Positions 3,520 to 64,000 are shown, counted from the first letter of the stretch. The stretch is DNA of 64,000 nucleotides from an uncultured Planctomycetia bacterium (GCA_964634945.1 CAZWMG010000002.1:102661-166660); one strand, 5' to 3'. Made by a program: numbers and translations. The notes: a model not told the origin generated them from the sequence alone.

Positions 3520-6500
3520 ATGTTTTATACCAATAACAGAGGAAGAATAATATTTAAGTGTATTAGTATTATTATAATCCTCTGTTTTTTTATTCAGGAT
3601 ATCGCGTCAGCGACTAATGGCCTGCCATTATGGTCAGTAATTAATGGAAACCGTGTGCTTGATGCCCGCGCAAAAGATTTCACCAACCTCGCCAAGATAG
3701 AGATCCCAAAAGATTACGGCATAATCAAAGAGATCCATAATACCGGAAGCGATAAGATAATAATCAATATCCAGGACGCGCACGCTAATCTAGGTGCCCA
3801 GGAATCGATTAACAAGCTTATAGAAAGCCTTGATAATGATTACCAGCTCAAGCTTGTGGCATTAGAAGGTGCTAAGGGGAATGTAGATACCTCATTGTTT
3901 CAGTCTCATCCTGATAATAATGCCAGAAAAAAGATAGCAAAATACTTTTTAGACAGAGGCAAGATAAACGCTGCTGAATATTACAAGATAAGCTCAGATT
4001 CAGATATAAAACTTTACGGCGCGGAGAATGGCTCGCTATACAGAGAAAACGTTAAATCTTACATAGACTCGCTAACTAATAAGGGCAGCATACACAAGGC
4101 TATTATTACCTTAAAGAGAGTAGTCTCACAGCTTAAATCTAAGGTATATTCTAAGCAGCTCCTAGAGCTTGATAGAAAGAGGCTAGAATACAGGACAGAC
4201 GCAATATCATTTAAGGAGTATTGGAAATATTTAGGCGCGCAATCAAGCAGGTTGAGGATAGACATATCAGACTTTGAGAATATTCGCGCTCTTCTTGATG
4301 CCTCAGAGCTTGAGGATAGAATAGATTTTAGCGGTGCGGAAAAAGAACGCCAGGCATTGATAGAGGTGCTTACAAACAGCCTTACCGGCGATAATATAGA
4401 GCAACTCTTATCGGAAAGCATGTCTTTTAGGTTGGGTAGAATACAGCCGTCAGTATATCATAACCATTTAAGGGATTACGCCCTGTCATGCGGGATAGAT
4501 ATATCATTGTATCCTAATCTTTCTGGTTATACAGATTATGTCAATATCCACGATAAGGTCGCATTGGACTCACTCTTTATTGAGCTCGATGAGCTTATAG
4601 ATAGCGTGCAATCACAATTAGTCCGTAATGATGATCAGCGCCTGCTTGCCTCGATATCAAAGAGAGCGGATATTTTGATAGAACTTTTAGATGCCAAGAT
4701 TGTAAATAGAGATCTGCAGTATTACAAATCGCATAAACAGGATTTTATACCTCAGAACATAACGCACGAATTATCCCCTTTAATGGCAAGGTATGGCATA
4801 GAGGTTAATCTCGTACCTGAGATGAGGGTAATTTTAGAGGCGCTTCCCTCTGTAGAGAAATTCTATGATTTAGCGACAAAGAGAAACAAGGCGCTTGTTG
4901 ATAATACACTAAGCAAGATGCAAAAGGATAATCGTTCTCTGGCAGTGCTTGTAACAGGTGGTTTCCATACAGAGGGTATCGCTAATATATTGAGAGACAG
5001 AAATATATCATATATGGTGGTATTGCCAAAATTTTCGAAAGATGCGCTTGACAGGCCTTATGATGATATTGTCTTGAATAAGCGCTTGCCATTTGAAGAG
5101 GTGCTCTCAAAAGGTGAATACTATCTCCAGGCACCAAGTATATTCTCAATGTTTGAACCTGTGGCAGAACAGAGAATAGGTCTTTTAACCTTTATACTAC
5201 TTCTTTCGTTAGGTGACATGCAGGCAATAGATAGCGATGCCTTTGTGCAGTTGGGTAAGGATATATTTAAGGTAATTAAAAAAGGCCAGGGCATAACAGT
5301 AGAATCGATATCATCAGAAACTGACCCACTTACAGTTGAAGACAATACCGAAGAGACCGCTCGAAATTTAGTTAAGGTGCTTGAAACATGGAATAAAAAG
5401 CGCAGAAAAGAAGAGTCATCTGGTGAGGTGTTAAATAATACGTTGACACCGAATGATCTCGAGATATTAATCAGGAACATGCTTAAGGATACAGAACTTG
5501 GCAGGTCCGAGTTTGAAGAGACCGAATTAACAGCAGCGGTAAAAGATTATAAGAAGATAGTTTTGGAAGAGTCTGCTATCAAAAGCGCGGATTCCGCTGC
5601 TCAGGAGATACTTGAAAGGCAGTTTCAGAGGGCATTTGAGAATCTGCAAAGCTTAAAAGGTAAACCAGGCTATGATTTAGCAAAGCGTAAATTAGAACAG
5701 GTGCCGGCATATAAACACAGACTCGCTACGGCATTAGAGAATGTAAAGACTGAAGAAGACGTTGCTAATAAGGCCCATCTTGATACCTTGACAAAAACAT
5801 CTTCAAGCGGTTTAGGTAAACCTGTTAAGCATTTATACGGTAGACATGAGCCGGAATGGGAATCGATAGTATCGGGTTTAACATCATATATTATTGCGGT
5901 GAATCTTGTGAGCTTTTCGTTTGACCGAATGAATAAGGCCTACGTTACTTTAGGTGATGATATATTCTTTGTTTCTGTAAACGAAGACACCGAAAGCCTC
6001 GGTGATAAATTTTCAATCAGAACCAGCACAAAAGAGGAGATGGATGCGGATAGCGTAGAAATATTGCGCCCCTTAGCGAATGACTGGGTCAAGGGTTGGT
6101 CTGATATATTATATGATAGAAACAGACGCAGTGTCCAATTTGCGCTTAATGATATAGATACCATGATGCGTCATATTATGAGTTATAAGGGAAGTAACGC
6201 CATGATTATGAATGTTTTGGATGATCCTCGCGTAGAAAAAGAGGTACATAAATATATTGAAGTATTGTCGCCCAAAGTTGAAAGCGCGCTGAATAAGCAA
6301 TTAGAGAATAGGTTAAGCAATATTGAGCTTGATAATAGTTTGCCTGCGCATCAACAGGGTATAGATGAATTATATTATCTATATGGCAATAAGGCACAAG
6401 AGGTTCTTAAGGCCCTATCAACTCCGGATATTGCCAAAGCAAAAACATCCTCTTCTAGTGATATTACATCAATGCGTATATCAAAAGATCAGGAGGAGAT

Positions 6501-9500
6501 ATTAAGAAGCCTTAAAAGTGATGAAGATAAGCGAGCATACATAATGGGTGAAGCAAGAAAAGCATTAGAAGAGTTGGAGGATGGTGAACATGGTGCAATA
6601 GATAAGATTATCAAGGAATTTTTAGCCATAACTACTAGGCTCGACATAAGAGAAGAGGAAGTAAGGGGATGGATATCTGAGATATTGGGAGTGGATTATG
6701 TTTCAAAAGATCCTAGCTCAAAATCAGCTTCAAGTGGGCAGATACTGCCAGCCATCTCAAGTGGTTACCAAGAGACGATTGACTATTTGATGACTTCTGA
6801 TGGTGAAATGTACATTCAGAATCATTTGATAAATTATAAAGAACTTATCAGTAAGATAGTAGCGTTAAGGCTGTTTATGGGGTCTGAGATAACAGATGGC
6901 TTTAAAACAGCCCACTTAAATAGTATTTTCTTATCAATCAATGAATTATATGATAAGTTGAAAGAGCTAGCGCCGGCTTCTAAAGACAAGCAAATCTTGG
7001 AGGAATATAAATATAGAATAGACCAGTATTACACCAATATGATACAGGAAATAAATCGCACCATTGCTTTACACGCGCTTGCTCTGAAGAGCAAGACAGA
7101 AGCTATAACAGATAAAGCAAAATTTAAAAGATACATGCAAGTCTTAACAGACACAGTAAGTGTTTTTAGGAATACAGAATCTGGCATAGCTAATATAAGC
7201 GAGGAAATAGATAACTTAATGAATGAAGCTCAGGAAATAAAATTAAGAGAGCTTGCTATAAAGGATTTTTATGAGCTCGGGCATTCTGCCGAAATATTCA
7301 GTGAGGTTAAGGATGTAGCGGGGATAAGAAAGGAACAGATCTCAGAAATATTAACGGAGGCAAAAAAACAATCGTCTAAGTTATCTAGCCTTAAAAAATT
7401 AACAGAATTAGCATTACCAGGTAATGAAAAGCTAGTGCAGGAGATTGAAATTCAGAAAGAAGCTCTTGACCAGTTACTTAGTACGGCAAGAGGAATGGAT
7501 AAATCTATCTTATACGGGGAAATAGTAAACACGTCAGAAGAAGATTGGCAAAATACGTGCAAGGGATTCTGGAAATTCCTCAATCGAGGCAAGAGAACCG
7601 TAATAAGGCGTATGAGCGATAAAATCAGAAATCTGATGAAGCATAGAATACAAGAGGGATTAAAATTAGATGAATCGAAACTAGCATTATATAGAAGCAA
7701 GATAAGCGATATTTTCTCAGAAGAGAATAGGTCAATAAAATTTCAAGAATCGCGATTTGTTATCTTGAATAGCGTTACATCAATCTCTAGAAAATTATCT
7801 AATTTAAAGGGAAATATTACAAGAACAAATAATCGTTTAAAGGCAGCATCCGCAGAGAATATTGCAACATATAGTGAAAAACATAGCCAGGCAGTGAGAA
7901 AGTACAAAGCTTACTTAATAGAATTAGCTAGCGTTAATCCTGATTACTATTATCTTGTGAAGTCGCGCTTTACAAAGGATCATCTTAAGTTTACCCAAGG
8001 GCTTGATTTTACAGCTGGTAGAAGTCTTCTGGAAGAATGTGATACTATTGCGAAACGAAGCTTTAGGAATAATCCTCGCGCGTTAAATAATGAATTATTC
8101 CCATTTGAATTAATAGCAAGGTTGCTTGCTTTAGGATATTCATATAAAGAAGCGAGTCAGTTGACATGGTGTATTATTAGGCCTGAGCAAGAACCGTCTT
8201 TGGTATTGACTGCAGATGCTATACTGGGCTTAGAAGAATTAGGTGTAAAATATAGTGCAAATAGCTCGGTTTTGCCGATAAACAAGAATGCCTTACGTAT
8301 AATAAAAAGTATGGATCGTTATAATCGCAACATAGCAAAAAGCGAAGCAATATTTGCTAAAATTGAACAGAATGCTGTAATGGCATCAAAAAGCTCTTCA
8401 AGCGGAGAAAATAATGCGCAAGATATTATAAGATCTTCAACATGGCTCAATCAGTATTTATCATATGAGAACTCGGAACATGTAGATACGATTAAGAGGC
8501 TTATGGAGAAACATAGTAACTTTTTGGATAAGCTGAGAATTCTGGAAAAATTAGATAAAGAAGGCATAAATATTCCGTTTGCAATGGGCTTATTCCGCCG
8601 CAAACCATCTGTCTTAGAAGAGAGAATACGCAAATTACATGGTATCTTTCAAGATAGGCCTATAACTAACAATATGCTGACTGACTATTCAAAAAATCTT
8701 GAAGATCAAGAAGGGGAAGGGACAATGGAGTCTGTCTTGAGTCAAGTAGGCGCGAGAGATGGGGCAGAGCCATCTGTTGATAAGCAAGCAGAAATCGAAG
8801 GTGAATATGTATCAGGACCAATAGACGATGCCTTGGAAGAGATAGCGGGCATTTTACAAGTAACATCATTCCAACCAAAATCATTAGAAGATGCGATAGC
8901 TGATATAGAGAAAGAGCTAGAAAGACCTTCCGAAGCTCCATCCGGAGAGATGGCAAGGATTTTGGATGCAACACCGCTATCGCAGCCAGAATTATTAGTG
9001 GGGGAGCCCAAGCCAACTATAATAGGTACTGAAGAAAAAGCAGATGCTATTTACATGGGTAAGGTTTTAAAAACTGCTAAGGATTTATCATTTGCCGAAC
9101 AAACATTACAGGGCAGATTGGACGCATTAGATGAGCGCGCCAGATCGCTTAAACAAAAAGATAAACATGACCTTAGGTATATGGTCAGCGCTCTTAAAGG
9201 TGATTTAGGTTCTAAGATTACAGTAAAACTCTTCTCTATTAGCTCACGATTAGAAAGCAAGGCCCCAGGATCTATTTCTATCAGCGAACTGAATAGGTTT
9301 GAAAAAACTCTTGAAGATGTCAAGACTGAGATGGCCGGCTTATCAGAAAATATAGATCACTTAGAACAAACATCAGGCGTTGCAACTAGATCTGAAATAT
9401 CAAAAGAAGAGCAAGGGAAAACACTGCCTAGGAAAGGTAAGGCAGCATCTTCCGAACAGATACAGAATATACAAAAGACCGTGCAGGGCCTATTATCTGA

Positions 9501-12500
9501 TTCGCACGTACTACAAAGTAGATCAGATAACCTTTATGCTCAGGTTGAGAAAGCCAAAAAGCGTAAACTTTCTAGAGAGACCTTGCCTGTCATAGATACC
9601 ATTAATAGCGAAATAGGTTTATTGATATTCAACACATTAACCCCTATTAGCAATATATTGAATGAGAGAGCAAGGCAATTTTATAATACTGAATTAGTTG
9701 ATCTTAACAGACGCCTTAAACAAGCCAGAGTAGAGGCAGACAGAATAAAAACTAATATAGATGGACTGGAAAAGAGAATAAACGCTTCTCTGAAAATTAC
9801 AACAAAAGAAGAGGTTCCAAAAGAGGCCCCAAAAGCAGATGCAAAGATAGGAGCTGAAGCCAGATCCAAAGCAGAAGTAGATTTGCTGAGTGAACATATT
9901 TTAAAGATAGTAACAGGTAAAACAGAAGGCCTGATATTCGCTTGGATTATTGATAGATATGAAAAAGCAGATACAGAGCAGAAAAAAGATGCTATTAAGC
10001 AGGAGCTGGGCAAGGCATATTTCGGGGTTACAGATTTTAGCATTGTAGACAAGAAGCTACGTGCGATAAACTCCCTTTATAAATATTATAAGAGTAAGGG
10101 GCTTGATATAGATATACCTTTGCTTGCAGAGCTTTTTAATCATAAAGATAAAACCCCTGACCAAGTAATAGATTTATTGGTAAGGGCGTTTAATGGAATT
10201 AGGCCGAATGAAGCGCTTAAAATAAATAATAACGCTTTTAACATAACTCGTGACTTATTAGAAAATTATCCCTCTCTAGAAGATTATCTTACTGATATAA
10301 CCATGCTCTTTAGGCCTGCAAAAGATGGCAGTATAAAGGTCGAGACTACTCTTATAAGATTAAAACTAAAAGCAGATAGCAAGGGAGCAGACGCAGCCAG
10401 CATAGCCGTAGGCAAAATATACAACTTAGTATCAGAGAACCTGCCTGAGAAGATTAAGGCCCAAGTACAAGAGGCAGAAGGCGCGGTTTCTTATTTAATG
10501 AAGCCATCAAAAATCCAGCAAGCATTGCTTGAAAAAGCAGGCTACACAGAGTATAGGCCAGGCCAGGCAGAGGCTATGAATATGCTTGTAGATGCAATAT
10601 CCGTTGAATTAAGAGCAGGTGGCGGTAAGACTATTGTATTAGGTGGTTCCGCGCTTTTAAGGCTTGAAGAAGGCAAGATACAGGGTGAAAAGGTATTTAT
10701 ATTGCTTCATGAAGATCAATTAGTACAGCAGGCCTTAGAAGGTGAGGATGGAATTAGGATGGGTGAAATCTTAAGTAAATGTGGCAGGGTGACAGGCTTT
10801 GTGCTGCCTGATGACAATACCCCTAATAAACTGCATTATGTTATGTATAAAGACGGCAAGGAGTTTCGTAATCCTGACAATACAGAGATATCAGCTGAGT
10901 ATTTTTATGCGGAATGTGAGATTGTGTATGCTGCCACAGAGAGGGTTATACACAGATATCAAGCGGAAATGCTTGGGAGTGAAAAAACAGCTTTTATTAA
11001 CAGCCTAAAAAGCAAAGAGGGTAAAGGCGTATTTGCACTATTAGATGAAGGCGATATACAGCTATTGTCTGATAACCCATGTGTAATATCCGGTATGCCG
11101 CTTGAAGACTACGCTGAAAGAATACAGGCAAGAAGATATATACAGTCGATGCTAAATGATGAAGTATTGCCTAAAAACTTTAATTCAGAAAAAGAGAAAC
11201 TCACAGAAGGCACAGATTTTTTAGATTATGTAAGAAAAATCAAGTATTTAGATATAGCGGAAGGTTCCGAAGAAGCCTCGCTTACTTCTAAGGGAAAATC
11301 AAAAATAAACAGGATGAAAAAGGCTATAATTAAACTCGCTAAAAAAGACGGTACTTATAATGAAACATTAAAGCATATCATAGAAGTATATTATGGCGAG
11401 TTTGTGTTGGAGGCTCTAAAGGCAAATATATTCTACAAAGAAGGCGATAACTTTACAGCTATAAAGGATGAAGATGGCAGAATTACCAATGTGCATGTTG
11501 TAACAAAAGATCTTACCAAGACAAAAAAGGGCATGTCTTTTGGAGAAGGCATGCAGCAGGCGATAGAAATAATGGCAGAGGTAAGGGGAATACATGTTCC
11601 CGGAGGGCCTGAAACAGGGGTAACTGCCGAAACTATGACATCGATGGCAGATACGACACAAGGGTTTTTAGAAAACAAAGATATTGTGAATGATTTCGCG
11701 GCTGCCAGCGGAACCATGCAGATAGATAGATTTAAAAGTAAGTATGAGGGCAAGAAAGTTGAAACAGTTAAAGGCCTCCCTGAAAAGCTCGATGAAAGCG
11801 CGGGATATACTGTTTTTGAGCAAGAAAATCAAAAGTTTGGAGAACTTATAGGAAGGTTGGGAAAGAGGCTAGGAAATAATCAGCCTGAGGTATTTTTTGC
11901 TGAGTCTGACGCGAAGGCAGAACGGCTCAAAAAACTAATAAAAGAAAAACTTAAGAATGGGCTTGAGGAAAACGGAATCATTATCCATATAGGTGATGGT
12001 AAGAATCCTGAGGGGTTGAGAAATGCTATTAAATATGCCGGTTACACGAATGTAATTACAATATTTACAAATATAGCTCAACGCGGTATTGATATTGAGA
12101 TAAAAGGAGAGAGCCTGCTTTTTGATGAGAAGACAGGCCGGTATAGAGATGGTGATATTATCTATGAGAATAGGCTTGCCGCTCCGGGGCTTTTTGTTAC
12201 TACTACAACGTCACAAGCCTGCGCGATAATTGAGCAGATGAGAAAACGCGCGGACCGTGGAAAAAATAGAGGTACATGGGAAGGGCTTGTATCATTAGAT
12301 GAGGGAGATTTGCGTTACAGAGAATCTCTTGACCAGCAAAGAGCAGGCCTGCGCAAAATAATAAAAGAATACGCAAAAGAACAAAATATGCTGATAGAGG
12401 TACAGGTAAAACGCATAATACTTGCCATGAGGGATGAGATAAAAGATATTAGTCAACAGCCGCAGGAGCTTGAAGGCAAATTTACAAGGCAAAGAGATAT

Positions 12501-52543: not shown

Positions 52544-52552
52544 AAGGATAAT

Positions 52553-56701: not shown

Positions 56702-58012
56702 ATGCAAAAGTTTCTGTCAATAGCGTTGTTTTTAGTTATGGTAAGCGTTACTGGTTGCGCACCCGGAAATGGTGCTGACAAAGTTGCATCGGATAAGATA
56801 ACCGTCTGGCATTGGATGACGGATAGAGAAGGCACCTTTAACGAGCTCGCGGAAAAATATAAAGCGCTTACAGGAACGGATGTTAAGTTTGAGTTATACG
56901 CGCCAACAGACGCTTACAGCGAGAAGATAAAAGGCGCGGCACAGACACAAACCCTGCCTGATGTTTTTGGCATACTAGCCGATAAGAGAGTTATATCATC
57001 GTTTATAAAGGCAGGCCATGTTCTTAATCTCGATACTTATATGGATGCGGATAATGGAAAATGGAAAAAGGTATTTTACGCAAAGGCACTGAATGTTAAC
57101 AGGTTCATGCTGGGTAACGAATTTGGGGTTGCGCCAGGCATCTACGCGGCGCCTTTGGATGTAATGAATATACAGATGCTATACAACAAGGATCTGTTTA
57201 AGAAGGCAGGCCTTGACCCGGAGAACCCACCCAGGAACTGGGCAGAATTTTTAGATGCCGGAAACAAGCTTCACGCTGCCGGCATACAAGGCATGGTAAG
57301 CGGATGGGGAGAGATCTGGATGATAGATTGTCTCGCGTCTAATTACGCGTATAATATAATGGGTGAAAAGAAGTTTATTGACACTATCAAGGGAGAGGTC
57401 TCATATGCTGATCAGGACTGGATAGATGTCTTTACTGTTTTTAAAGATATGAGAGACAATAACCTGCTTGCCAATGGTATCGTTACTATGGTCAACAAGC
57501 ACGCGGAACAGATGTTTGCGAACCAACGCGCCGCGCTGGCATTTAATGGTTCATGGTGCGTAAATGTATATCATGGCATGAATCCGGATCTGAATTATGG
57601 CGCAATGTTGCCACCTGCGTATTCAAATAAATACCCTATGAAGATATGGGGTGGAGCGGGTGCCAGCCTTATGGTTAATGCTAGGACTAAAGATAGAGAC
57701 AAGGTCGTTGAATTCTTAAAATGGTTTACAGCTAAAGGCCAGCAGGCATATTTAGCGAATGAGACACGCAACCTGCCCGCTAATAAAGATAGCCTTGGTG
57801 AGATATCTCCCGTATTAGCGCAGTTTGTTGATGATATGGATAGCGTTACCCATCCGAACAATCTTAATGTTTCAGAGTTTCCTAAGGTTATAGAAGCGCG
57901 AGATAAGGGCATACAGTCTATTGTAATAGGCGAAAAGACCCCCGAAGAAGTCGCTTTAGAGGTGCAGGCTGTTAAGATAAGAGAGATGGGAAAAGCAGGG
58001 GGACTCTCCTAA
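56702..58012 (+). CDS. ABC transporter extracellular solute-binding lipoprotein, carbohydrate family (SBP_bac_1/MalE-like)
   Basis: Lipobox VSVTGC; KITVWHWMTD, NIQMLYNKDLFKKAGLDPENPPRNWAEF, typical sugar-SBP length and motifs. SD AAGGAG. Confidence 0.85.
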   Translation: MQKFLSIALFLVMVSVTGCAPGNGADKVASDKITVWHWMTDREGTFNELAEKYKALTGTDVKFELYAPTDAYSEKIKGAAQTQTLPDVFGILADKRVISSFIKAGHVLNLDTYMDADNGKWKKVFYAKALNVNRFMLGNEFGVAPGIYAAPLDVMNIQMLYNKDLFKKAGLDPENPPRNWAEFLDAGNKLHAAGIQGMVSGWGEIWMIDCLASNYAYNIMGEKKFIDTIKGEVSYADQDWIDVFTVFKDMRDNNLLANGIVTMVNKHAEQMFANQRAALAFNGSWCVNVYHGMNPDLNYGAMLPPAYSNKYPMKIWGGAGASLMVNARTKDRDKVVEFLKWFTAKGQQAYLANETRNLPANKDSLGEISPVLAQFVDDMDSVTHPNNLNVSEFPKVIEARDKGIQSIVIGEKTPEEVALEVQAVKIREMGKAGGLS

Positions 58013-58143
58013 AGGGGACGCCCCTGAGCATGGAAATAGATAAAATTTTGCAAAAATAATAAATTTGTGCAACATGCAATAATATATATATAGTTAAGCA
58101 AAATATAGTTATCAGAAAACTAAAAAAACGATAAAACTCAATC

Positions 58144-58166: not shown

Positions 58167-58184
58167 AAAAGTTTTAGGAATAAG

Positions 58185-59078
58185 ATGGAACATAGAAAAG
58201 CAAAAAAGATATTTACGAATTATCTCTTTGTCCTACCTGCGGTGCTATTGTTCTGCACCTTTCATCTATACCCTTTTGTGAATGTTTTTCGTTATTCACT
58301 GTTTCAATGGGATGGTATAGTACCATTTTCATCCGCGCAATTTGTAGGCCTCGCGCATTTTAAAGATATATTTACTGCTAATCCACAGTGGTGGTATTCC
58401 ATGTGGCATGCTTTTTATATTACCCTTCTTACATTGATATTTCAGAATGGGCTTGCCCTGCTTTTAGCACTTGCATGTGATAGGGCCATAAGAGGCGCTA
58501 AGGCTTACAGGATGATATTCTTCCTGCCGCCTGTGCTTTCCGGTATCGTGGTAGGACTTATCTGGCAATGGATATATGATGGTAATTATGGGCTTTTAAA
58601 TTACTGGTTGACGAGCATAGGCCTGGGCCATTTAGCGCGTGCCTGGCTTGCGGATCCTAATACCGCACTTACATGCGTTGGCATAGTGCATATGTGGAAG
58701 GGTTTTGGATGGGGCTTTATAATACTCTTGGCCGGCCTTCAATCTATACCCCGTGAATTATATGAGGCGGCAAAGGTAGATGGCGCTGGGGCATGGGATA
58801 CATTCAGGCGCGTTACAGTGCCACTTATGGTGCCTGTCTTTGTTCTTGTAACGATCCTTACAATACTTAATACAATGCAGATATATGATCTGATAGTCTC
58901 TCTTACAGGTGGAGGCCCGGGTTATCATACAGAGGTTCCGATAACAAGGATATTGGCGGCGATGAGGGGTGGCTCGCGTCTTGGTTACGCTTGCGCTCTC
59001 GGCATTGTCTTTGGACTTATGTTACTTGTTGTATCATTTATACAGATACAGGCTTCAAAATTGGCAAAACAGGAGTAA
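58185..59078 (+). CDS. ABC sugar transporter permease (MalF/UgpA-like)
   Basis: Six TM stretches. EAA-loop LQSIPRELYEAAKVDGAGAWDTFRRVTVPLM. Confidence 0.85.
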   Translation: MEHRKAKKIFTNYLFVLPAVLLFCTFHLYPFVNVFRYSLFQWDGIVPFSSAQFVGLAHFKDIFTANPQWWYSMWHAFYITLLTLIFQNGLALLLALACDRAIRGAKAYRMIFFLPPVLSGIVVGLIWQWIYDGNYGLLNYWLTSIGLGHLARAWLADPNTALTCVGIVHMWKGFGWGFIILLAGLQSIPRELYEAAKVDGAGAWDTFRRVTVPLMVPVFVLVTILTILNTMQIYDLIVSLTGGGPGYHTEVPITRILAAMRGGSRLGYACALGIVFGLMLLVVSFIQIQASKLAKQE

Positions 59079-59079
59079 A

Positions 59080-59143
59080 CGTTATAGCGTTATGGGGTTA
59101 TGGTGCTATTGCGTTATAGCGTTATGGGGTTATGGTGTTATTG
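59080..59143. repeat. Two tandem copies of a 32-nt unit (CGTTATAGCGTTATGGGGTTATGGTG(C/T)TATTG) in the permease-permease intergenic space. It belongs to the same family as 137..168 but is in inverted orientation.
   Basis: Direct reading. The reverse complement of 135..170 is cgttatagcgttatggcgttatggcgttatggcg, which matches the first ~26 nt of each unit. Confidence 0.8.
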
Positions 59144-59168
59144 CGTTTAGAGCTATAAAAGGAAAGAG

Positions 59169-60053
59169 ATGCAGAAACCTATATATTACAAAGTAAAACA
59201 ATTCATACTAACGTATTCTACCCATATACTGCTTATTATCGTATCTCTTAGCTGCATACTCCCTCTCTTATGGATGTTCTCATCAAGCTTAAAGACCCAG
59301 GCAACGGTCTTTTCTGATATGAGCCTTTTTCCACAGAATCCGCATTGGGGGAACTTTTATATCGCCTGGACAAAAGGCGGGTTTGGCAGATATTTTTTCA
59401 ATAGCCTGCTTTATACTATCGTAGTTGTGCTAGGTATCGTATTTGTTACATCTCTAGCCGCGTATGGTATTTCACGGCTTAAGATACCCGGTAAGAATAT
59501 TATATTTTATGTTTTTTTAGCTGCCATGATGATACCGATACCCGGCGCGTTTGTGGCATTGTATGTGCTTTTAAATAAGCTGGGATTCTTGAACCCCCAA
59601 ACAGGTTTTCCATTACTGGATAACGCTATAATGAGGCTTGGCTATATCCTACCTTTGATAAACAGCGGGCTCTCTCTCGGTATATATATGCTTAAGACGT
59701 TTTTTGATAAGATGCCCGGTGACCTGGAAGATTCCGCGAGGATAGACGGCTGCTCGGTATTTGGCATATATTGGCACATAGCCTTACCTATGGCAAAGCC
59801 CGCGATAGCGGTTATTGTAATCTTTAATACATTGAATGTGTGGAACGAATACTTGCTCGCCATGCTTGTGTTGACAGGCAAGAACCTTATGCCTTTAACC
59901 AGGGCACTTATGGTCTTTCGCGGTACACATATTACTGAATACCCGCTTCTTATGTCAGGCATGACAATTACGGTAATACCGATAATAATTGTGTATATAT
60001 TATTACAAAAACATATCATAGCGGGCATAACAGCAGGAGCGGTAAAGGGATGA
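59169..60053 (+). CDS. ABC sugar transporter permease (MalG/UgpE-like)
   Basis: EAA-loop LEDSARIDGCSVFGIYWHIALPMAKPA. Six hydrophobic stretches. Overlaps the next gene by 4 nt (ATGA). Confidence 0.85.
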   Translation: MQKPIYYKVKQFILTYSTHILLIIVSLSCILPLLWMFSSSLKTQATVFSDMSLFPQNPHWGNFYIAWTKGGFGRYFFNSLLYTIVVVLGIVFVTSLAAYGISRLKIPGKNIIFYVFLAAMMIPIPGAFVALYVLLNKLGFLNPQTGFPLLDNAIMRLGYILPLINSGLSLGIYMLKTFFDKMPGDLEDSARIDGCSVFGIYWHIALPMAKPAIAVIVIFNTLNVWNEYLLAMLVLTGKNLMPLTRALMVFRGTHITEYPLLMSGMTITVIPIIIVYILLQKHIIAGITAGAVKG

Positions 60054-60673
60054 AAGTTCGGTTATCGGTTGTAGGTTTTGGGTTATCGTTAATACTTTTT
60101 GCAACAATACTAGTTGCGGTTTATGCTTTTGCGCTTGAATTGCCGGAAGGAGTAAAGGATTATTATAAAGACGGCGTGGCTAGCGCTCCCGGGAGATCAG
60201 AAGGAGTGCCTCCTACAGTCAAGAAGGCTGATGTAAAAGAAGGCGTTGATATGGGCAGGAGGGAGACCAAGGAGTATGATTTTAGCGATGAATCCGCGGG
60301 AGCCCTTATGGCAAAGGCATGGGAAGCGCTTAATAAAAAAGATGAGCAGGCCCTAACCGCTTATACGTCAAGGTGCATAGAACTTTACGAAGAAGATGCG
60401 AAAGATCAAGAGGCAAAACTTGATGCCTTCGCGCCATCAGGCTCTGAAGCGGATTACGACGCCTTAAATAATGTCGCTGTCTCTTATTTTATTCGAGGTG
60501 AATTTTACAAGTACAAGAAGGATTGGAAAGAATCCAGTAAGAATTATAAGAAGGTTGTAGATAATTTTTATTTTGCGCAATACTGGGATCCACGCGGATG
60601 GTGGTGGAAGCCGGCGGAGATATCAGAAGGCGAGATAAAAAAGATTGATGAAGGTTATTATGAGAAAGATTAA
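60050..60673 (+). CDS. Membrane-anchored hypothetical protein (207 aa), translationally coupled within the transporter operon
   Basis: N-terminal TM (VVGFGLSLILFATILVAVYAFAL). Start overlaps the upstream stop. The next gene starts 2 nt after its stop. Confidence 0.6.
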   Translation: MKVRLSVVGFGLSLILFATILVAVYAFALELPEGVKDYYKDGVASAPGRSEGVPPTVKKADVKEGVDMGRRETKEYDFSDESAGALMAKAWEALNKKDEQALTAYTSRCIELYEEDAKDQEAKLDAFAPSGSEADYDALNNVAVSYFIRGEFYKYKKDWKESSKNYKKVVDNFYFAQYWDPRGWWWKPAEISEGEIKKIDEGYYEKD

Positions 60674-60675
60674 GT

Positions 60676-62571
60676 ATGCGTTCTAAGCTCTACATCCTGT
60701 GTTCTATATTAGTATTTTCTTTCATAGTCTTGTTGGCTGGTTGCGGGTCATCTAATAGCTTTGAGGAGGCACCTAGTTTTAAACTCGCGGAAAGAGGAAG
60801 CGAAGGCATAATAGATTACAAAAAATATGGCGTCTTTGAGGGCGTTGGTACACAAGATTACCGTTATATTATAGATGACCAGGCAGGCCTGTCAAAGGCT
60901 GTTGGTGAGGGCATATATCCAAATTCATCAAGCGTACTTAAGGACCCGGGGTATGAGGAATTTAAGAGTTCAGGCAGGCTCAAGGGCAAGCATTGGGATT
61001 TTATAAATAAACCTGAATATCAGGCAAATTTTTATAAGTGGGCAACGGCGCCTGAGGATAGAGGAGTGAAATTATTTTATACTGCTTTTGCCCTTGAAAA
61101 ATCAGGCCATATAAAGCAGGCTATCAAGGCGTATTACGCGCTTTGCGTAAATTTTCCAAAGACTATAGGGTGGACATATTGGCATACACCCTGGTATGTT
61201 GGCCAGGTGTCGATTGACAAGATAAGATTTTTATGTAAAAAATATCCTCAGCTAGGGTGGAGACTTGAGGGTGGATATATACTTGTAAAGAATGGCTATG
61301 ATGACAATGTAAGAAACGATGTATTCATAGTTGATCCGGGGCGGATTGTAAAGGCGAAACCGGAACAGCTTCAAGAGAAGAGAAGAGATATAGCCAACCA
61401 AGAGATTATTAAATCAACAGGGGATGATCATATCAAGCTTGTACAGTATGAGGATAGGTCATGGCAGCTTTATGTTGACGGCAAGCCTTACATCATTAAA
61501 GGGATTGCTTATGAGCCCAGCAAGATAGGCCAGAGTCCTGATCAGGGAAATCTTGAGGATTGGATGCAGCAGGATAATAACCATAACTCTAAGATAGATG
61601 CGCCATATGACACATGGGTCGATAAGAATAAGAATGATATTAAGGATGCTGATGAGCAGGTGGTAGGTGATTTTAATCTTTTATGGAATATGGGTTGTAA
61701 TACCATAAGGGTGTATCATCATGCTTCAAATATGCCGTTGTTAAGAGACCTTTATGAAAATTATGGGATTATGTCACTGATGGGTGATTTTATAGGGGCA
61801 TATGCTATAGGCTCAGGCGCTACATGGTATAAAGGTACGGATTATTCGGACCCGGTTCAGCAGCAGAATATGTTGGATAGCATAAAAGAGATGGTAGATA
61901 CGTATAAGGATGAACCGTATGTACTTATGTGGGTCCTAGGAAATGAGAACAACTACGGTGTGGCTAATAACGCTAAGAAGGACCCTGTATCATACTATAA
62001 GTTTGTAAATAAGGCAGCAGAGTTTATAAAATCGATAGATCCCCATAACAGGCCGGTCGCTATATGCAACGGAGAGATAATATTCCTTGATATATTTGCC
62101 AAAGAATGCCCCGCTGTAGATGTATTTGGTTTGAATTCGTATCGTGGAGATTATGGTTTTGGCCATTTATGGCTTACTGTAAAGGAAGAGGCGGATATCC
62201 CGGTTATTATAACAGAATATGGTTGCCCGGCACATAATATGTATACAGATGAGGCAACAGCCGAATTGCAGCAGGCAGAATATTTAAAAAATTGCTGGAT
62301 TGATATTATATCTAATTCAGATGGCTATGGGCAGGGGAATAGTTTGGGCGGAGTATTATTTGAATGGGTAGATGAGTGGTGGAAGGCGTATGAGCCTGGG
62401 CTGCATGATACAAAGCCTTTATGGGCAGGATCATTTCCCGATGGATGGATGCATGAGGAATGGCTCGGAGTAGCATCACAAGGCAGCGGTAAGAATAGTC
62501 CGTATCAACGGGTCTTAAGAAAAGCATATTACGAATACAGGGATATGTGGAAAACTAGGGAAAGCGACTAG
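60676..62571 (+). CDS. Lipoprotein clan GH-A glycosidase/transglycosylase, GH72-like (paralog of 55286..56572), with an extra ~230-aa N-terminal region
   Basis: Lipobox VLLAGCGSS. DGKPYIIKGIAYEP (GH72 NGSQFYIRGVAYQ), NTIRVYHH, VLMWVLGNENNYG, VIITEYGCPAHN, GGVLFEWVDEWWKAY. Confidence 0.6.
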   Translation: MRSKLYILCSILVFSFIVLLAGCGSSNSFEEAPSFKLAERGSEGIIDYKKYGVFEGVGTQDYRYIIDDQAGLSKAVGEGIYPNSSSVLKDPGYEEFKSSGRLKGKHWDFINKPEYQANFYKWATAPEDRGVKLFYTAFALEKSGHIKQAIKAYYALCVNFPKTIGWTYWHTPWYVGQVSIDKIRFLCKKYPQLGWRLEGGYILVKNGYDDNVRNDVFIVDPGRIVKAKPEQLQEKRRDIANQEIIKSTGDDHIKLVQYEDRSWQLYVDGKPYIIKGIAYEPSKIGQSPDQGNLEDWMQQDNNHNSKIDAPYDTWVDKNKNDIKDADEQVVGDFNLLWNMGCNTIRVYHHASNMPLLRDLYENYGIMSLMGDFIGAYAIGSGATWYKGTDYSDPVQQQNMLDSIKEMVDTYKDEPYVLMWVLGNENNYGVANNAKKDPVSYYKFVNKAAEFIKSIDPHNRPVAICNGEIIFLDIFAKECPAVDVFGLNSYRGDYGFGHLWLTVKEEADIPVIITEYGCPAHNMYTDEATAELQQAEYLKNCWIDIISNSDGYGQGNSLGGVLFEWVDEWWKAYEPGLHDTKPLWAGSFPDGWMHEEWLGVASQGSGKNSPYQRVLRKAYYEYRDMWKTRESD

Positions 62572-62606: not shown

Positions 62607-63209
62607 ATGGGCAAAAAAAGATTTTTAGGTTTGATAGTATTTGCGGCTCTGGTTTTTAGCACGATGGCGCTTCAGGCGCAGAGTGTGGAGTTCTTTGAGC
62701 CATTCAATGTCTATACAGACAAAAACGCGCGCGGCAATCACTATTCTCCGTCGGGATGGATGGGTGATTACAGTGACATCGCTTTTACGGACGCGTGGAA
62801 AGAAAACCCGCATTCAGGTATGAGTTGTATTAAGGTTAATTATAAGCCTAAGGCTTCACAGGGCGCAAGGTGGACAGGCATGTATTGGCAGAACCCACCT
62901 AATAACTGGGGAGAGAAGAAGGGCGGATATGATCTAACAGGCGCTAAAAAACTCACATTCTGGGCACGTGGAGAAAAAGGCGGTGAACGCATAGAAGAGG
63001 TCAAGATAGGCGGCTTATCAGGCACATACCCTGATTCAGATATCGCGGCAGCAGGCCCTATTATCTTGACAAAAGATTGGCAGGAGTATAGTATAAATCT
63101 AGATGGTAAAGACCTAAGCTATATAAGCGGTGGCTTTGTATGGGCTACTAATCTTGATGTTAATCCAAGTGGGTGTACTTTTTATATTGATGATATAAGA
63201 TACGAATAA
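62607..63209 (+). CDS. Secreted CBM-like beta-sandwich protein (paralog B of 54565..55209)
   Basis: Signal peptide MGKKRFLGLIVFAALVFSTMALQAQS. Shares the blocks listed for paralog A. SD GGAGGAG. Confidence 0.7.
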   Translation: MGKKRFLGLIVFAALVFSTMALQAQSVEFFEPFNVYTDKNARGNHYSPSGWMGDYSDIAFTDAWKENPHSGMSCIKVNYKPKASQGARWTGMYWQNPPNNWGEKKGGYDLTGAKKLTFWARGEKGGERIEEVKIGGLSGTYPDSDIAAAGPIILTKDWQEYSINLDGKDLSYISGGFVWATNLDVNPSGCTFYIDDIRYE

Positions 63210-63339: not shown

Positions 63340-64000
63340 ATGAAACAAGATTATCCAGATCGCAGAAAATATATAAGGTTGAATTCATGTTTCCCAATTG
63401 AATTCAGCTTCTTTTTTTCCGCGAAAACAACACTCACAAAAGAATACCAGGGTTTTACGCGTGACATCTCTGAAGGTGGCTTATGCCTTGACGCGAAGAA
63501 CCTAAGCGATGAAGATTCCGTGCTTGTGTTGAAAAAATGGCCGAGTCTGAATCTTACTATTGATATACCTGTCTTGGGCCATCTGGTTAAGACAAGAGCA
63601 AAGGTTGTATGGGTTAAAAAAGATGATAGTGACACGGAAAAGAATAACTATTTTATAGGGGTCTCTTACCTGGATATAAATGCTAAGGATAAGAGGAAGA
63701 TTATAAATTACGCACGGCGCTTGAAATATTTACCACGTTTGGCTGTAGCGTTACTTGTTCTTATGTTTCTAGGAATAGCGGCCCTTTCTTTTTATCATAT
63801 ACAGTCAAAAAAAGAGAATAAGGTGCTGGTAAATCAGCTTGTTTCTGTATCAGAGGTTAAGTCTGATCTTGAAAAGCGCTTAAATGAGCTCAAGACCCGC
63901 AAGGATATGCTGGAGGCCAAGCTTGTTAAAAGCGCTGAAGGAGCTGTAGGTCTTAAGCAAAGAATAGCTGATATAGAAAAGAGATTGACTGATGAGAAGA
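63340..64000 (+). CDS. PilZ-domain (c-di-GMP-binding) protein, 5' part; continues past the window end. It has a C-terminal TM segment and a coiled coil.
   Basis: The ORF is open from ATG 63340 to the window edge. The PilZ signature RRKYIRL (RxxxR) ... DISEGGLCL (D.S.GG) has correct spacing. This is preferred over the overlapping minus-strand 94-aa ORF 63351..63635. Confidence 0.55.
   Translation, partial: MKQDYPDRRKYIRLNSCFPIEFSFFFSAKTTLTKEYQGFTRDISEGGLCLDAKNLSDEDSVLVLKKWPSLNLTIDIPVLGHLVKTRAKVVWVKKDDSDTEKNNYFIGVSYLDINAKDKRKIINYARRLKYLPRLAVALLVLMFLGIAALSFYHIQSKKENKVLVNQLVSVSEVKSDLEKRLNELKTRKDMLEAKLVKSAEGAVGLKQRIADIEKRLTDEK

What the first reader, a model, noticed from the sequence alone, without database searches (positions are those of the whole stretch)
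3520..64000. System-level hypothesis: a eukaryote-like beta-1,3-glucan synthesis, supply and remodelling locus built around a giant gene
All of the following are co-located on one strand with short intergenic gaps. There is a GT48-like synthase inside the giant protein, a UDP-glucose supply fusion, and two GH72-like clan GH-A enzymes (in fungi GH72 Gas/Gel enzymes elongate and branch beta-1,3-glucan). There are two CBM-like binders, an oligosaccharide-type ABC importer and a PilZ c-di-GMP receptor. PilZ domains gate bacterial cellulose/alginate synthases. The combination GT48 + GH72 + UDPGP is the fungal cell-wall glucan toolkit. I am not aware of it being described in a bacterium. The giant protein could build a glucan-containing extracellular structure (sheath, stalk, attachment or predation organelle).
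Basis: inference. Interest (0 to 1): 0.85.

Follow-up and report, generated by a model that had tools for sequence, protein, structure and literature searches.

The report
Giant Omnitrophota protein with polysaccharide-synthase module
A 14,300-residue membrane protein of an uncultured Omnitrophota bacterium carries a previously unrecognised cellulose-synthase-like sugar-polymerising module near its end.

Summary
The gene layout is real: a 42.9-kb ORF is followed on the same strand by 11 complete ORFs and a twelfth (PilZ) that runs off the window end.

- **Confirmed:**
  - an NDK + PGM/PMM fusion with a weak UDPGP-like middle;
  - an SBP plus two ABC permeases;
  - a PilZ protein;
  - two clan GH-A hydrolases;
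  - two paralogous small secreted proteins.
- **GT48:** not supported by Pfam, PDB sequence searches, hhalign or shuffle-controlled hmmsearch.
- **The hydrolases:** they resemble GH158 beta-1,3-glucanases, not GH72.
- **Prior description:** the pattern of giant gene + pilZ + binding-protein transporter + glycoside hydrolases is already described for Omnitrophota (West-Roberts 2023), read there as prey-wall digestion.

My reading is a c-di-GMP-linked, cellulose/curdlan-synthase-like exopolysaccharide machine inside a giant envelope protein. This is a new variant of known kinds. The product is unknown; beta-1,3-glucan is plausible but unproven.

The parts
3520..46422 (+). Giant ORF of 14,300 aa. 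It has an N-terminal hydrophobic anchor (aa 10-28), a further single predicted hydrophobic segment at aa 783-801, and three transmembrane clusters (aa 3220-3585, 12242-12907, 13397-13703).
   Evidence: ORF listing. Hydropathy scan. Few internal repeats. Part of it is shared with relative P0040 over aa 9073-14291.
11215..12456 (+). Divergent SecA-like region (giant aa 2566-2979): preprotein cross-linking domain plus P-loop domain.
   Evidence: PF21090 at 4.4e-7, 30.1 bits (cutoff 27). PF01043 at 2.3e-4, 22.2 bits (cutoff 23.5). Matches the 'divergent secA' trait of Omnitrophota giant genes.
13177..14274 (+). First transmembrane cluster (giant aa 3220-3585, about 10 helices).
   Evidence: Hydropathy scan.
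14812..15180 (+). Two LysM peptidoglycan-binding domains (giant aa 3765-3818 and 3834-3887).
   Evidence: PF01476 at 4.8e-14 overall, with two stretches. PDB SafA/LytE LysM hits.
15181..40242 (+). About 8,350-aa region between LysM and the second transmembrane cluster. No family match; presumed extracytoplasmic. Internal repeats at aa 8896-9246 and 9776-10294.
   Evidence: No Pfam or PDB sequence hits. Repeats. Localisation is inferred from LysM and transmembrane positions.
41017..44628 (+). Conserved synthase module (giant aa about 12,500-13,703): helical domain, transmembrane bundle, cytoplasmic GT-A domain, interface helices and a second transmembrane bundle.
42919..44091 (+). Catalytic core of the module (giant aa 13134-13524). 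Invariant residues: K24, D48 (DRD, the DxD position), D62, R79, T81, E96, G121-W122, S180-E181-D182, K211-x-R213-E214, R227-W228-x-x-G231, Q242.
   Evidence: 17-sequence alignment A2. Motif positions relative to predicted strands and helices. RWSGGLMQ compares with E. coli BcsA RWARGMVQ.
45598..46422 (+). C-terminal domain of the giant (aa 14027-14300) with a weak HEAT-like match. It is shared with the C-termini of other large proteins in related contigs.
   Evidence: HEAT_2 at 0.0029. 40% identity to the L059 upstream gene C-terminus and 33-35% to P0150 and L051 ORFs.
46584..52415 (+). 1943-aa fusion: NDK (aa 106-228), UDPGP-like (aa about 360-860), PGM/PMM I-IV (aa 951-1460) and an unknown C-terminal 480 aa. 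It has a Sec-like N-terminal leader.
   Evidence: Pfam. NCBIfam pgm, GlmM and ndk. Ugp1 at E = 0.023. The UDPGP-like part is 69-77% identical in P0148-P0152, including one protein from Candidatus Gorgyraea atricola.
52517..54352 (+). 611-aa ORF of unknown function with a signal-like leader.
   Evidence: Only a weak Fucose_pyrophosphorylase hit (0.0082, below cutoff). None in NCBIfam.
54565..55209 (+). 214-aa putative lipoprotein, paralogue of 62607-63209 ('CBM-like', unverified).
   Evidence: Translation shows a lipobox-like ATGC. No family match.
55286..56572 (+). 428-aa membrane-anchored clan GH-A hydrolase, GH158-like.
   Evidence: GH2_C at 3.6e-11; GH72 at 0.0018, below cutoff. PDB GH158 9oro_A at 4.5e-9 and BuGH158 6pal_A at 9.3e-7.
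56702..58012 (+). Extracellular solute-binding protein (carbohydrate-type ABC).
   Evidence: SBP_bac_1 at 1.8e-34 and SBP_bac_8 at 8e-29.
58185..60053 (+). Two ABC permease genes (58185-59078 and 59169-60053).
   Evidence: BPD_transp_1 at 8.7e-14 and 3.4e-12.
60050..60673 (+). 207-aa membrane-anchored ORF of unknown function. It overlaps the permease stop codon.
   Evidence: No family match.
60676..62571 (+). 631-aa lipoprotein-like clan GH-A hydrolase, GH158-like.
   Evidence: GH2_C at 3e-13. PDB GH158 9oro_A at 2.4e-12 and 6pal_A at 8.8e-8.
62607..63209 (+). 200-aa secreted paralogue of 54565-55209.
   Evidence: Translation. Weak choice-of-anchor J hit at 0.0041.
63340..64000 (+). N-terminal part of a 707-aa PilZ-domain protein (PilZ, then a transmembrane helix, then coiled coil). 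It runs off the window.
   Evidence: Translation with RRKYIR and DISEGG motifs. PF07238 on record for the full gene. TIGR02266 at 1.7e-5.

Best explanation
The window comes from an Omnitrophota genome related to Candidatus Gorgyraea and shows a typical Omnitrophota giant-gene locus.

**Proposed architecture of the giant protein (topology inferred)**
- A cytoplasmic SecA-like ATPase region and a first helix bundle, which may help thread the protein out.
- Two LysM domains that pin it to peptidoglycan.
- About 8,000 residues of unknown extracytoplasmic sequence.
- Near the C-terminus, a membrane-embedded processive glycosyltransferase of the cellulose-synthase fold.

**Proposed mechanism (steps inferred unless marked)**
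1. The GT-A domain takes an NDP-hexose in the cytoplasm.
2. It adds sugars to a growing chain held by the RW-containing interface helix.
3. It pushes the polymer through its own helix bundle to the outside, next to the giant extracellular part.

**Roles of the neighbours**
- The downstream NDK / UDPGP-like / PGM fusion converts hexose-6-phosphate to hexose-1-phosphate to UDP-hexose and regenerates UTP.
- The PilZ protein couples activity to c-di-GMP, as in BcsA or Alg44.
- The two GH158-like enzymes, the two small secreted paralogues and the ABC importer either trim and recycle the polymer (as BcsZ does for cellulose) or harvest beta-1,3-gluco-oligosaccharides from outside.

The fold, the motifs, the family and the gene neighbourhood are shown. 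The topology, substrate, product linkage and regulation are inferred. Beta-1,3-glucan, made as by the bacterial GT2 curdlan synthase, is the leading guess for the polymer.
For: **The module**
- Conserved in 146 clusters.
- AF2 model has pTM 0.79.
- Invariant K, DxD-position D, S-E-D and RW..G..Q occur in the GT2 order and at the expected secondary-structure positions.

**Coupling to sugar-nucleotide supply**
- NDK + PGM/PMM with a UDPGP-like middle in the next gene.
- P0043 has NTP_transferase + fucose pyrophosphorylase fused behind the same module.
- In L048/L049 and L059 a giant gene is followed by PilZ and then UDPGP-like or multi-enzyme sugar-nucleotide proteins.

**PilZ**
- Window.
- L010: 138 aa, 9.5e-12, about 400 nt after a module-bearing giant ORF.
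- West-Roberts 2023 report pilZ after most Omnitrophota giant genes.

**Beta-1,3 link**
- Both hydrolases hit GH158 best.
- GH158 enzymes are beta-1,3-glucanases (PMC13195107; PMC7157763).
Against: - No sequence-level link to any GT family: Pfam gives nothing, and the profile against E. coli BcsA or Fks1 is no better than shuffles. The fold assignment therefore rests on one AF2 model built from 25 sequences.
- The first 'D' of the GT2 D,D,D signature is not conserved.
- The fusion protein, the 611-aa ORF and relative P0150 begin with Sec-like leaders and a positive N-terminus. That would place NDK/UDPGP/PGM outside the cytoplasm, where nucleotides are lacking.
- The window's neighbours are absent from 44 module-bearing loci in other genomes, though several of those loci end inside the giant ORF. 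In the Verrucomicrobiota loci examined, unrelated genes follow instead.
- GH158-like enzymes plus an ABC importer fit substrate scavenging equally well.
- PilZ is 17 kb downstream here, not adjacent.
Confidence: 0.45

Rival explanations
1. Prey or host cell-wall attack (West-Roberts/Kizina model). The giant protein is an adhesin and digestion platform. The downstream glycoside hydrolases, binding protein and permeases digest and import carbohydrates from a prey envelope or from environmental laminarin-type glucans. The sugar-phosphate enzymes process imported sugars. The glycosyltransferase module has a side role, such as glycosylating the giant protein or making a capsule.
For: - The locus pattern matches the published one: SecA-like domain, many transmembrane helices, pilZ, SBP transporters and glycoside hydrolases.
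- The hydrolases are GH158-like and are extracytoplasmic by their leaders.
- LysM domains bind peptidoglycan.
- PGM/PMM-type domains with apparent extracellular location were already noted for Archaeovorins.
Against: - It does not explain a conserved, apparently catalytically intact processive synthase module.
- It does not explain nucleotidyltransferase domains fused to that module in a relative.
- It does not explain the recurrent PilZ neighbour, which in known systems gates polysaccharide synthases.
- No peptidase or muramidase domain was found in this giant.
Confidence: 0.3
2. One reading: the module is a true, very divergent GT48 (Fks/callose-synthase) beta-1,3-glucan synthase, and the locus is a bacterial counterpart or source of the eukaryotic glucan toolkit.
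For: - A partial 5328-aa gene upstream of PilZ in a related contig (L049) has a precomputed, unmarked PF02364 Glucan_synthase hit plus HEAT_2, the same tail architecture as the window giant.
- Most family members have DRN (DxN) at the DxD position, reminiscent of the Fks1 DAN motif (PMC12715860).
- Fks1 has the same cellulose-synthase-like fold.
- The GH158-like neighbours point to beta-1,3-glucan.
Against: - No PF02364 hit in the window giant or in 30 family members.
- No Fks1 hit with single sequences or two profiles at E <= 10.
- hhalign probability is 0.3% against verified Fks1 1101-1318, and hmmsearch --max is no better than shuffles.
- The module keeps the GT2-type RW, which the verified Fks1 segment lacks at that place.
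- The transmembrane region of the related gene in L059 is not similar to the window module.
- GH72 is not supported.
Confidence: 0.1
3. Adjacent but functionally separate units: (a) giant gene plus sugar-nucleotide fusion, (b) a laminarin-type oligosaccharide uptake cluster, and (c) a PilZ coiled-coil protein. They are merely co-oriented in a compact genome.
For: - None of the neighbours is found beside the module in 44 other genomes.
- Gaps of 100-212 nt at several junctions could hold promoters.
- The [small secreted protein + GH] pair is duplicated around the transporter, like a self-contained uptake cluster.
Against: - West-Roberts 2023 report the same downstream gene classes as conserved across Omnitrophota giant-gene loci.
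- The order giant -> PilZ -> UDPGP-like recurs in three related contig types.
Confidence: 0.15

Closest known systems
Omnitrophota giant-gene loci ('Archaeovorin'-type and related; West-Roberts et al. 2023 bioRxiv 10.1101/2023.11.21.568195; Seymour et al. 2023 PMC10066038)
   Same: - Giant ORF with many transmembrane helices and a divergent SecA-like domain.
- pilZ, solute-binding-protein transporters and glycoside hydrolases downstream.
- PGM/PMM-type sugar enzymes associated with the locus.
- Omnitrophota origin.
   Different: - The ORF is smaller (14,300 aa against more than 30,000 aa).
- No dockerin, TSP3, GT1/GT5, peptidase or GGDEF domains were detected.
- pilZ is not immediately downstream.
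- Those papers do not mention a cellulose-synthase-like membrane module or glucan synthase.
Bacterial cellulose synthase BcsA-BcsB with BcsZ and a PilZ domain (GT2; PDB 4p00/4hg6)
   Same: - GT-A domain set between helix bundles that form the export channel.
- DxD, (T/S)ED and RW..G..Q motifs in the same order.
- A PilZ c-di-GMP receptor and a cognate endoglucanase encoded with the synthase.
   Different: - No detectable sequence similarity.
- PilZ is a separate 707-aa protein, not a C-terminal domain.
- No BcsB or BcsC homologues.
- The synthase is a module inside a 14,300-aa protein.
- The hydrolases are GH158-like (beta-1,3), not GH8.
Agrobacterium curdlan synthase CrdS (GT2 beta-1,3-glucan synthase; from my own knowledge, not tested here)
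   Same: It would be the bacterial precedent for making beta-1,3-glucan with a cellulose-synthase-fold enzyme from UDP-glucose.
   Different: No comparison could be run because no CrdS sequence was available. The product of the window module is unknown.
Fungal Fks1 / plant callose synthase (GT48; PDB 7xe4, 8jzn; review PMC12715860)
   Same: - Cellulose-synthase-like fold with a GT-A domain between helix bundles.
- Catalytic ED motif.
- Many family members have DxN rather than DxD.
   Different: - Fails the Pfam, PDB-sequence, hhalign and shuffle tests.
- Fks1 is not among the listed structural neighbours.
- The module keeps RW.
- No accessory domain or Rho1 context.
GH158 beta-1,3-glucanases (BuGH158 6pal; GH158(Pro) 9oro; PMC7157763, PMC13195107)
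   Same: They are the best solved relatives of both window hydrolases. The window enzymes are clan GH-A TIM barrels with NE acid/base-type (GNEANY, GNENNY) and E-(F/Y)-G nucleophile-type motifs.
   Different: - Only the central 130-185 residues align, at E 1e-9 to 1e-12.
- Pfam files them under GH2_C.
- The 631-aa enzyme has a 320-aa N-terminal extension.
- Activity is untested.

Membership tests
GT48 (Fks1 / callose synthase, Pfam PF02364) | Match to the Pfam Glucan_synthase model at or near its gathering score | tested here: not met
   No PF02364 hit in the whole giant at E <= 0.01, nor in 1000-aa pieces at E <= 0.5-5. None in 30 family members.
GT48 (Fks1 / callose synthase, Pfam PF02364) | Significant sequence similarity to solved Fks1/Gsc2 | tested here: not met
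   phmmer of the giant against PDB gives none. Profiles A1 and A2 against PDB at E <= 10 give none. hhalign of A2 against verified Fks1 1101-1318 gives probability 0.3%. hmmsearch --max scores -2.5 bits, and 541 of 2000 shuffles do as well.
GT48 (Fks1 / callose synthase, Pfam PF02364) | Fks1 as nearest structural neighbour | tested here: not met
GT48 (Fks1 / callose synthase, Pfam PF02364) | Catalytic ED motif and DAN (DxN) in place of DxD (PMC12715860) | tested here: inconclusive
   S-E-D is invariant. The DxD position is DRD in the window but DRN in most members. ED is shared with the GT2 TED motif, so it does not discriminate.
GT48 (Fks1 / callose synthase, Pfam PF02364) | Beta-1,3-glucan product from UDP-glucose; Rho1 GTPase activation | not testable with these tools
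   Needs biochemistry.
GT2 processive membrane synthases (BcsA/CesA, HAS, chitin synthase, CrdS) | GT-A domain fused to a channel-forming helix bundle (cellulose-synthase fold) | tested here: met
GT2 processive membrane synthases (BcsA/CesA, HAS, chitin synthase, CrdS) | D, DxD, (T)ED, QxxRW signature in order | tested here: inconclusive
   DxD (DRD), S-E-D and R-W-S-G-G-x-x-Q are present and invariant or nearly so, with an upstream invariant K as in KAGN. The first D is not conserved, and Q of QxxRW is replaced (x-P-R-W).
GT2 processive membrane synthases (BcsA/CesA, HAS, chitin synthase, CrdS) | Match to a GT2 sequence model or to a GT2 protein | tested here: not met
   No Pfam GT2-type family is reported for the window module or for 30 members. 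Family HMMs against E. coli BcsA are no better than shuffles.
Omnitrophota giant-gene locus (West-Roberts 2023) | Giant ORF with many transmembrane helices and a divergent SecA-like domain | tested here: met
Omnitrophota giant-gene locus (West-Roberts 2023) | Downstream pilZ, binding-protein-dependent transporter and glycoside hydrolases | tested here: met
   pilZ is 17 kb downstream rather than adjacent.
Omnitrophota giant-gene locus (West-Roberts 2023) | Omnitrophota genome | tested here: inconclusive
   No marker gene in the window. The nearest named relative of the fusion protein (71% identity) is from Candidatus Gorgyraea atricola, Omnitrophota. Module relatives occur in Omnitrophota and Verrucomicrobiota MAGs.
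GH72 (Gas/Gel glucanosyltransferases, PF03198) | Match to PF03198 at gathering score | tested here: not met
   18.0 bits against a cutoff of 25.9 in the 428-aa enzyme; none in the 631-aa enzyme. No GH72 structure is among the PDB hits at E <= 1.
GH158 (endo/processive beta-1,3-glucanases) | Significant similarity to solved GH158 enzymes across the catalytic barrel | tested here: inconclusive
   Top PDB hits are 9oro_A (4.5e-9, 2.4e-12) and 6pal_A, but only 130-185 residues align. No CAZy/dbCAN model was available. Alignment of the catalytic Glu residues was not checked residue by residue.
UDPGP (UTP-glucose-1-phosphate uridylyltransferase, PF01704) | Match to PF01704 at gathering score | tested here: inconclusive
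   19.6 bits against a cutoff of 22, E = 4.3e-4. The only PDB hit is Ugp1 at E = 0.023. An LNGGIGQAM motif is seen in the translation.
PGM/PMM and NDK | All four alpha-D-phosphohexomutase domains; NDK domain | tested here: met
   PF02878/79/80 and PF00408 all above cutoff; PF00334 at 67 bits. NCBIfam pgm, GlmM and ndk partial scores are below the equivalog cutoffs, so sugar specificity is open.
PilZ c-di-GMP receptor (PF07238) | PilZ domain with RxxxR and (D/N)xSxxG motifs | tested here: met
   PF07238 is on record for the full 707-aa gene. RRKYIR and DISEGG appear in the window translation. c-di-GMP binding itself is not testable here.

The most novel reading that the evidence does not exclude
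The C-terminal module defines a new, Pfam-invisible family of processive polysaccharide synthases of the cellulose-synthase fold. The family is spread through the PVC bacteria sampled here (Omnitrophota, Verrucomicrobiota, and MAGs labelled Planctomycetales) and is nearly always built into proteins of 2,000 to more than 14,000 residues. On this reading, many 'giant genes' of Omnitrophota are at heart c-di-GMP-gated, self-anchored exopolysaccharide machines. They would build the cell's own glycan coat, possibly beta-1,3-glucan, along a giant protein scaffold, rather than (or as well as) acting as prey-wall digestion devices. Sister lineages may carry a true GT48-type module at the same position. 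That would make this protein family a place where GT2-like and GT48-like synthases are exchanged, and it would bear on the bacterial ancestry of eukaryotic glucan synthases.
Probability: 0.2. Interest if true: 0.8.

Novelty: new variant of a known kind. Interest (0 to 1): 0.55.

Why it matters
Giant genes of Omnitrophota are among the largest known genes, and their function is openly described as poorly understood (PMC10066038). The current proposal is prey-wall digestion.

A conserved, apparently intact cellulose-synthase-fold module would give these proteins a concrete, testable catalytic role. Three observations point the same way:
- The module itself is conserved and retains its catalytic motifs.
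- pilZ recurs as a neighbour.
- Sugar-nucleotide enzymes are fused to it or encoded next to it.

This would also explain why pilZ genes follow giant genes. It adds a sequence-orphan branch to the processive synthase superfamily (146 clusters at 50% identity) that standard annotation misses.

The 'fungal toolkit in a bacterium' claim should not be propagated on present evidence.

Tried and rejected
1. **Single-sequence AF2 of aa 12600-13750.** pLDDT 36.9, unusable.
2. **Word-indexed homologue search with the module.** No hit. With profile A2 it returned only 21 short fragments, none with Pfam GT domains.
3. **My eyeball alignment of module motifs to Fks1** (ISEDIW against NEDIYAG, KxRE against KGRD). 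I verified the Fks1 segment, then found no statistical support. Rejected as evidence.
4. **My eyeball match of the L059 upstream gene's transmembrane region to the Fks1 'RxTG' region.** No Pfam hit, no PDB hit, and no better than shuffles against an Fks1 segment recalled from memory. Rejected.
5. **Attempts to fetch the 5328-aa PF02364-bearing gene.** The metagenome scan with its PilZ returned an unrelated contig, L051.
6. **afdb50 fold library.** Unavailable.
7. **The search for related loci with broad alignments A1 and A2.** Failed for lack of conserved stretches. It worked with the 4-sequence alignment A3.
8. **The tblastn.** It used out-of-frame pieces of the fusion protein. Redone in frame, with the same negative result.
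9. **Exact look-up of the AcrB product.** Not on record.
10. **Shared domain between the giant's C-terminus and the fusion or 611-aa ORF within the window.** None found.

Full report
**1. What is in the window**

The + strand carries an AcrB-type pump gene (174-3275; ACR_tran 4.7e-226), which is outside the finding. It is followed by one uninterrupted ORF of 14,300 codons (3520-46422). Eleven complete + strand ORFs come next, and a twelfth (PilZ) runs off the window end. Ten of the eleven gaps are 2-212 nt, and the second permease gene overlaps the 207-aa ORF by 4 nt. GC content is about 40% throughout, with positive GC skew. Pieces of the same sequence occur in several public short-read assemblies, so it is not an assembly artefact of one sample. 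A 43-kb open frame cannot arise by chance.

**2. Origin**

The downstream 1943-aa protein has relatives that are 69-77% identical over parts of its length. One comes from a MAG of Candidatus Gorgyraea atricola, phylum Omnitrophota. The giant protein shows the traits published for Omnitrophota giant genes:
- a divergent SecA-like region (P-loop_SecA 30.1 bits, above cutoff; SecA_PP_bind 22.2 bits, just below cutoff);
- many transmembrane helices;
- downstream pilZ, a binding-protein-dependent transporter and glycoside hydrolases.

The locus type is therefore already described (West-Roberts et al. 2023, bioRxiv 10.1101/2023.11.21.568195; Seymour et al. 2023, PMC10066038). [quoted passage not shown] They do not mention a glucan or cellulose-synthase module.

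**3. The claimed GT48 synthase**

A hydropathy scan shows three helix clusters. The last two (aa 12242-12907 and 13397-13703) flank a soluble stretch of about 490 aa, which is the layout of processive membrane synthases. GT48 membership fails every test I could run.
- No PF02364 hit in the whole giant, nor in 1000-aa pieces at E <= 0.5-5.
- No Fks1 hit by phmmer against all PDB chains.
- No Fks1 hit with two family profiles at E <= 10.
- No PF02364 hit in 30 family members scanned individually.

I had noticed motif resemblances (ISEDIW against NEDIYAG, and others). I obtained the true Fks1 1101-1318 sequence from the PDB search. hhalign then gave 0.3% probability. An unfiltered hmmsearch scored -2.5 bits, equalled by 541 of 2000 shuffles. 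The resemblance is not evidence.

**4. What the module is**

An exhaustive HMMER search of 1.84 billion representatives found 146 clusters (128 at E <= 1e-10). Most lie inside proteins of 2,000-7,700 aa. The conserved part is giant aa about 12,500-13,640; the rest of the giant is essentially unique.

A genome scan found 44 loci, mostly in Verrucomicrobiota (Limisphaerales, Pedosphaera) and Omnitrophota MAGs. Four were labelled Planctomycetales, and single loci carried other labels (Clostridia, Limnocylindrales). In Verrucomicrobiota the module sits about 400 aa from the end of proteins of about 4,100-4,350 aa. In Omnitrophota it sits inside ORFs that fill the whole 21-kb loci.

With a 25-sequence alignment, AlphaFold2 gave a model of aa 12749-13659 with mean pLDDT 74.5 and pTM 0.79.

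| Search | Result |
|---|---|
| Foldseek | 45 membrane GT2 synthase chains at E <= 0.012 |
| Fks1 | absent from both lists |

The 17-sequence core alignment has these invariant residues:
- K24.
- D48, which follows a predicted strand at the DxD position. It reads DRD in the window and DRN in most members.
- S180-E181-D182 at the start of a helix, as for TED.
- K211-x-R213-E214.
- R227-W228-S-G-G231.

Q234, three residues after G231, is highly conserved (it appears in the alignment consensus) but is not invariant. The window motif RWSGGLMQ compares with E. coli BcsA RWARGMVQ.

The order K ... DxD ... (S/T)ED ... RW..G..Q is that of GT2 processive synthases, although the first D of the D,D,D signature is not conserved. 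At the sequence level the family is an orphan: its HMMs score E. coli BcsA no better than shuffles, and no Pfam GT2 model matches. I conclude that it is a processive synthase of the cellulose-synthase fold, not assignable to GT48. By structure and by the RW motif it is closer to GT2.

**5. A loose end that keeps GT48 alive at low probability**

In contigs from a related organism (its homologue of the UDPGP-like region is 69% identical), the gene upstream of a small PilZ gene is a partial 5328-aa ORF. Its precomputed Pfam record lists PF02364 Glucan_synthase (unmarked, so E <= 1e-5) plus HEAT_2. I could not retrieve that sequence.

A probable orthologue's last 811 aa (L059) shares only the C-terminal 275 aa with the window giant. 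Its transmembrane part resembles neither the window module nor Pfam or PDB entries. Sister lineages may therefore carry a different, GT48-type synthase at the equivalent position. That would fit a synthase role for the tail of these proteins, but it does not make the window module GT48.

**6. The neighbours**

- **The 1943-aa protein.** It contains NDK and a complete phosphohexomutase. Between them lies a region that weakly matches UDPGP (19.6 bits against cutoff 22; yeast Ugp1 is the only PDB hit, E = 0.023; an LNGGIGQAM motif is present). Together these could make a UDP-hexose from a hexose-6-phosphate and regenerate UTP. The sugar is not fixed, because the PGM/PMM and UDPGP families also handle mannose and GlcNAc.
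- **Support for coupling to the synthase.**
  - P0043 has NTP_transferase and fucose-pyrophosphorylase domains fused behind the same module.
  - L048/L049 show giant -> PilZ -> a 3104-aa multi-enzyme (epimerase, GDP-mannose dehydratase, ROK and others) -> a UDPGP-like protein -> a 2823-aa multi-enzyme.
  - L059 shows giant -> PilZ -> UDPGP-like.
- **A serious caveat.** The fusion, the 611-aa ORF and P0150 start with Sec-like leaders with a positive N-terminus. Taken at face value, this exports them. West-Roberts noted the same puzzle for sugar-phosphate enzymes.
- **The two hydrolases.** They are clan GH-A barrels. GH72 is not supported (18 bits against 25.9, in one enzyme only). The best solved relatives of both are GH158 (9oro_A at 4.5e-9 and 2.4e-12; BuGH158 6pal_A), which are beta-1,3-glucanases.
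- **The two 200-214-aa paralogues.** They have no family match, so 'CBM-like' stays a guess.
- **The transporter.** The binding protein and two permeases are standard carbohydrate-type ABC parts. No ATPase gene is present.
- **PilZ.** The ORF encodes a 707-aa protein with PF07238 and both c-di-GMP-binding motifs.
- **Conservation.** None of these neighbours occurs next to the module in the 44 genome loci. In the Verrucomicrobiota loci examined, unrelated genes follow instead. The linkage is lineage-specific to Omnitrophota, where pilZ does recur (L010; West-Roberts).

**7. Mechanism proposed**

Shown:
- the fold assignment, from a predicted model;
- the conserved catalytic-type residues;
- the family and its distribution;
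- the domain content of the neighbours;
- recurrence of PilZ and sugar-nucleotide enzymes beside related giant genes.

Inferred:
- The topology runs from a cytoplasmic SecA-like region and GT-A domain, through periplasmic LysM, to an extracytoplasmic middle of about 8,000 aa.
- The module polymerises an NDP-hexose and extrudes the chain through its own helices.
- PilZ conveys c-di-GMP control.
- The GH158-like enzymes and the importer trim and recycle the product, as BcsZ does in cellulose operons, or alternatively scavenge foreign beta-1,3-glucan.

Beta-1,3-glucan as the product rests only on the GH158-like neighbours. The bacterial precedent would be the GT2 curdlan synthase, so no eukaryote-like machinery is needed. 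I give this integrated reading about 0.45. The digestion and import model with a side role for the glycosyltransferase gets 0.3, merely adjacent units 0.15, and true GT48 0.1.

**8. Verdict**

The locus class is known. What is new is a Pfam-invisible synthase module of the cellulose-synthase fold, conserved across giant and large proteins of PVC bacteria. It offers a mechanistic reason for the conserved pilZ neighbour. I classify the finding as a new variant of known kinds, with interest 0.55.

Noticed in passing
window 46584-52415 (fusion aa 66, 919, 1487, 1641, 1746); giant aa 761, 1626, 14029: The motif K-[TSA]-S-S-[SA]-G occurs 5 times in the fusion protein (0.17 expected by shuffling), mostly at or near borders of the recognised domains, and 3 times in the giant. 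It also occurs in relatives P0150 and the L059 upstream gene. It could be a linker or a proteolytic processing site of polyproteins.
   Followed up: partly
window 46584-46720, 52550-52680; L048:10001-10150: The NDK/UDPGP-like/PGM fusion, the 611-aa ORF and relative P0150 all begin with a Sec-like hydrophobic leader followed by a shared 'N.S.LR.(I)S' motif. Yet their enzyme domains need cytoplasmic nucleotides, so their localisation is unexplained.
   Followed up: partly
window 45598-46422; L059:1611-2438; L048:15185-15586; L051:2514-2954 and 9409-9843: The last 275 aa or so of the giant (ending VATQA) form a domain shared with the C-termini of several other large proteins in related Omnitrophota contigs (33-40% identity). 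It may be a common docking or sorting domain.
   Followed up: partly
L049 (JGI 3300077567, contig Ga0643578_0000565), gene upstream of PilZ: A partial 5328-aa gene has a precomputed Pfam hit to PF02364 Glucan_synthase (GT48) plus HEAT_2. This suggests that some related giant proteins carry a Pfam-detectable GT48 domain. The sequence could not be fetched.
   Followed up: partly
proteins P0037, P0054, P0058: In three family members the two halves of the synthase core appear in swapped order (query 738-917 precedes 424-725). This could be circular permutation, domain duplication or misassembly.
   Followed up: no
protein P0043 aa 1144-1618: A relative has NTP_transferase and fucose-pyrophosphorylase domains fused C-terminal to the same synthase module.
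   Followed up: yes
window 42919-44091, core residue 50: The window protein has DRD at the DxD position. Most family members have DRN (DxN), the variant seen as DAN in metal-independent Fks1.
   Followed up: partly
window 30205-31257 and 32845-34401 (giant aa 8896-9246, 9776-10294): These are the two main internal repeat arrays in the giant protein (units of about 60-110 aa, 30-45% identical), apart from one weak match between aa 5223-5370 and 5514-5656. They are partly shared with relative P0040.
   Followed up: no
window 174-3275: A full-length AcrB/RND efflux pump gene lies immediately upstream of the giant gene, where published loci often have type II secretion-like genes. No such secretion genes are in the window.
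   Followed up: no
window 56702-60053: The ABC importer has a binding protein and two permeases but no ATPase gene in the cluster.
   Followed up: no
L010:14011-14391: In one Omnitrophota locus, a 23S rRNA-intervening-sequence-protein (bAvd-like) gene sits between the module-bearing giant ORF and its PilZ gene.
   Followed up: no
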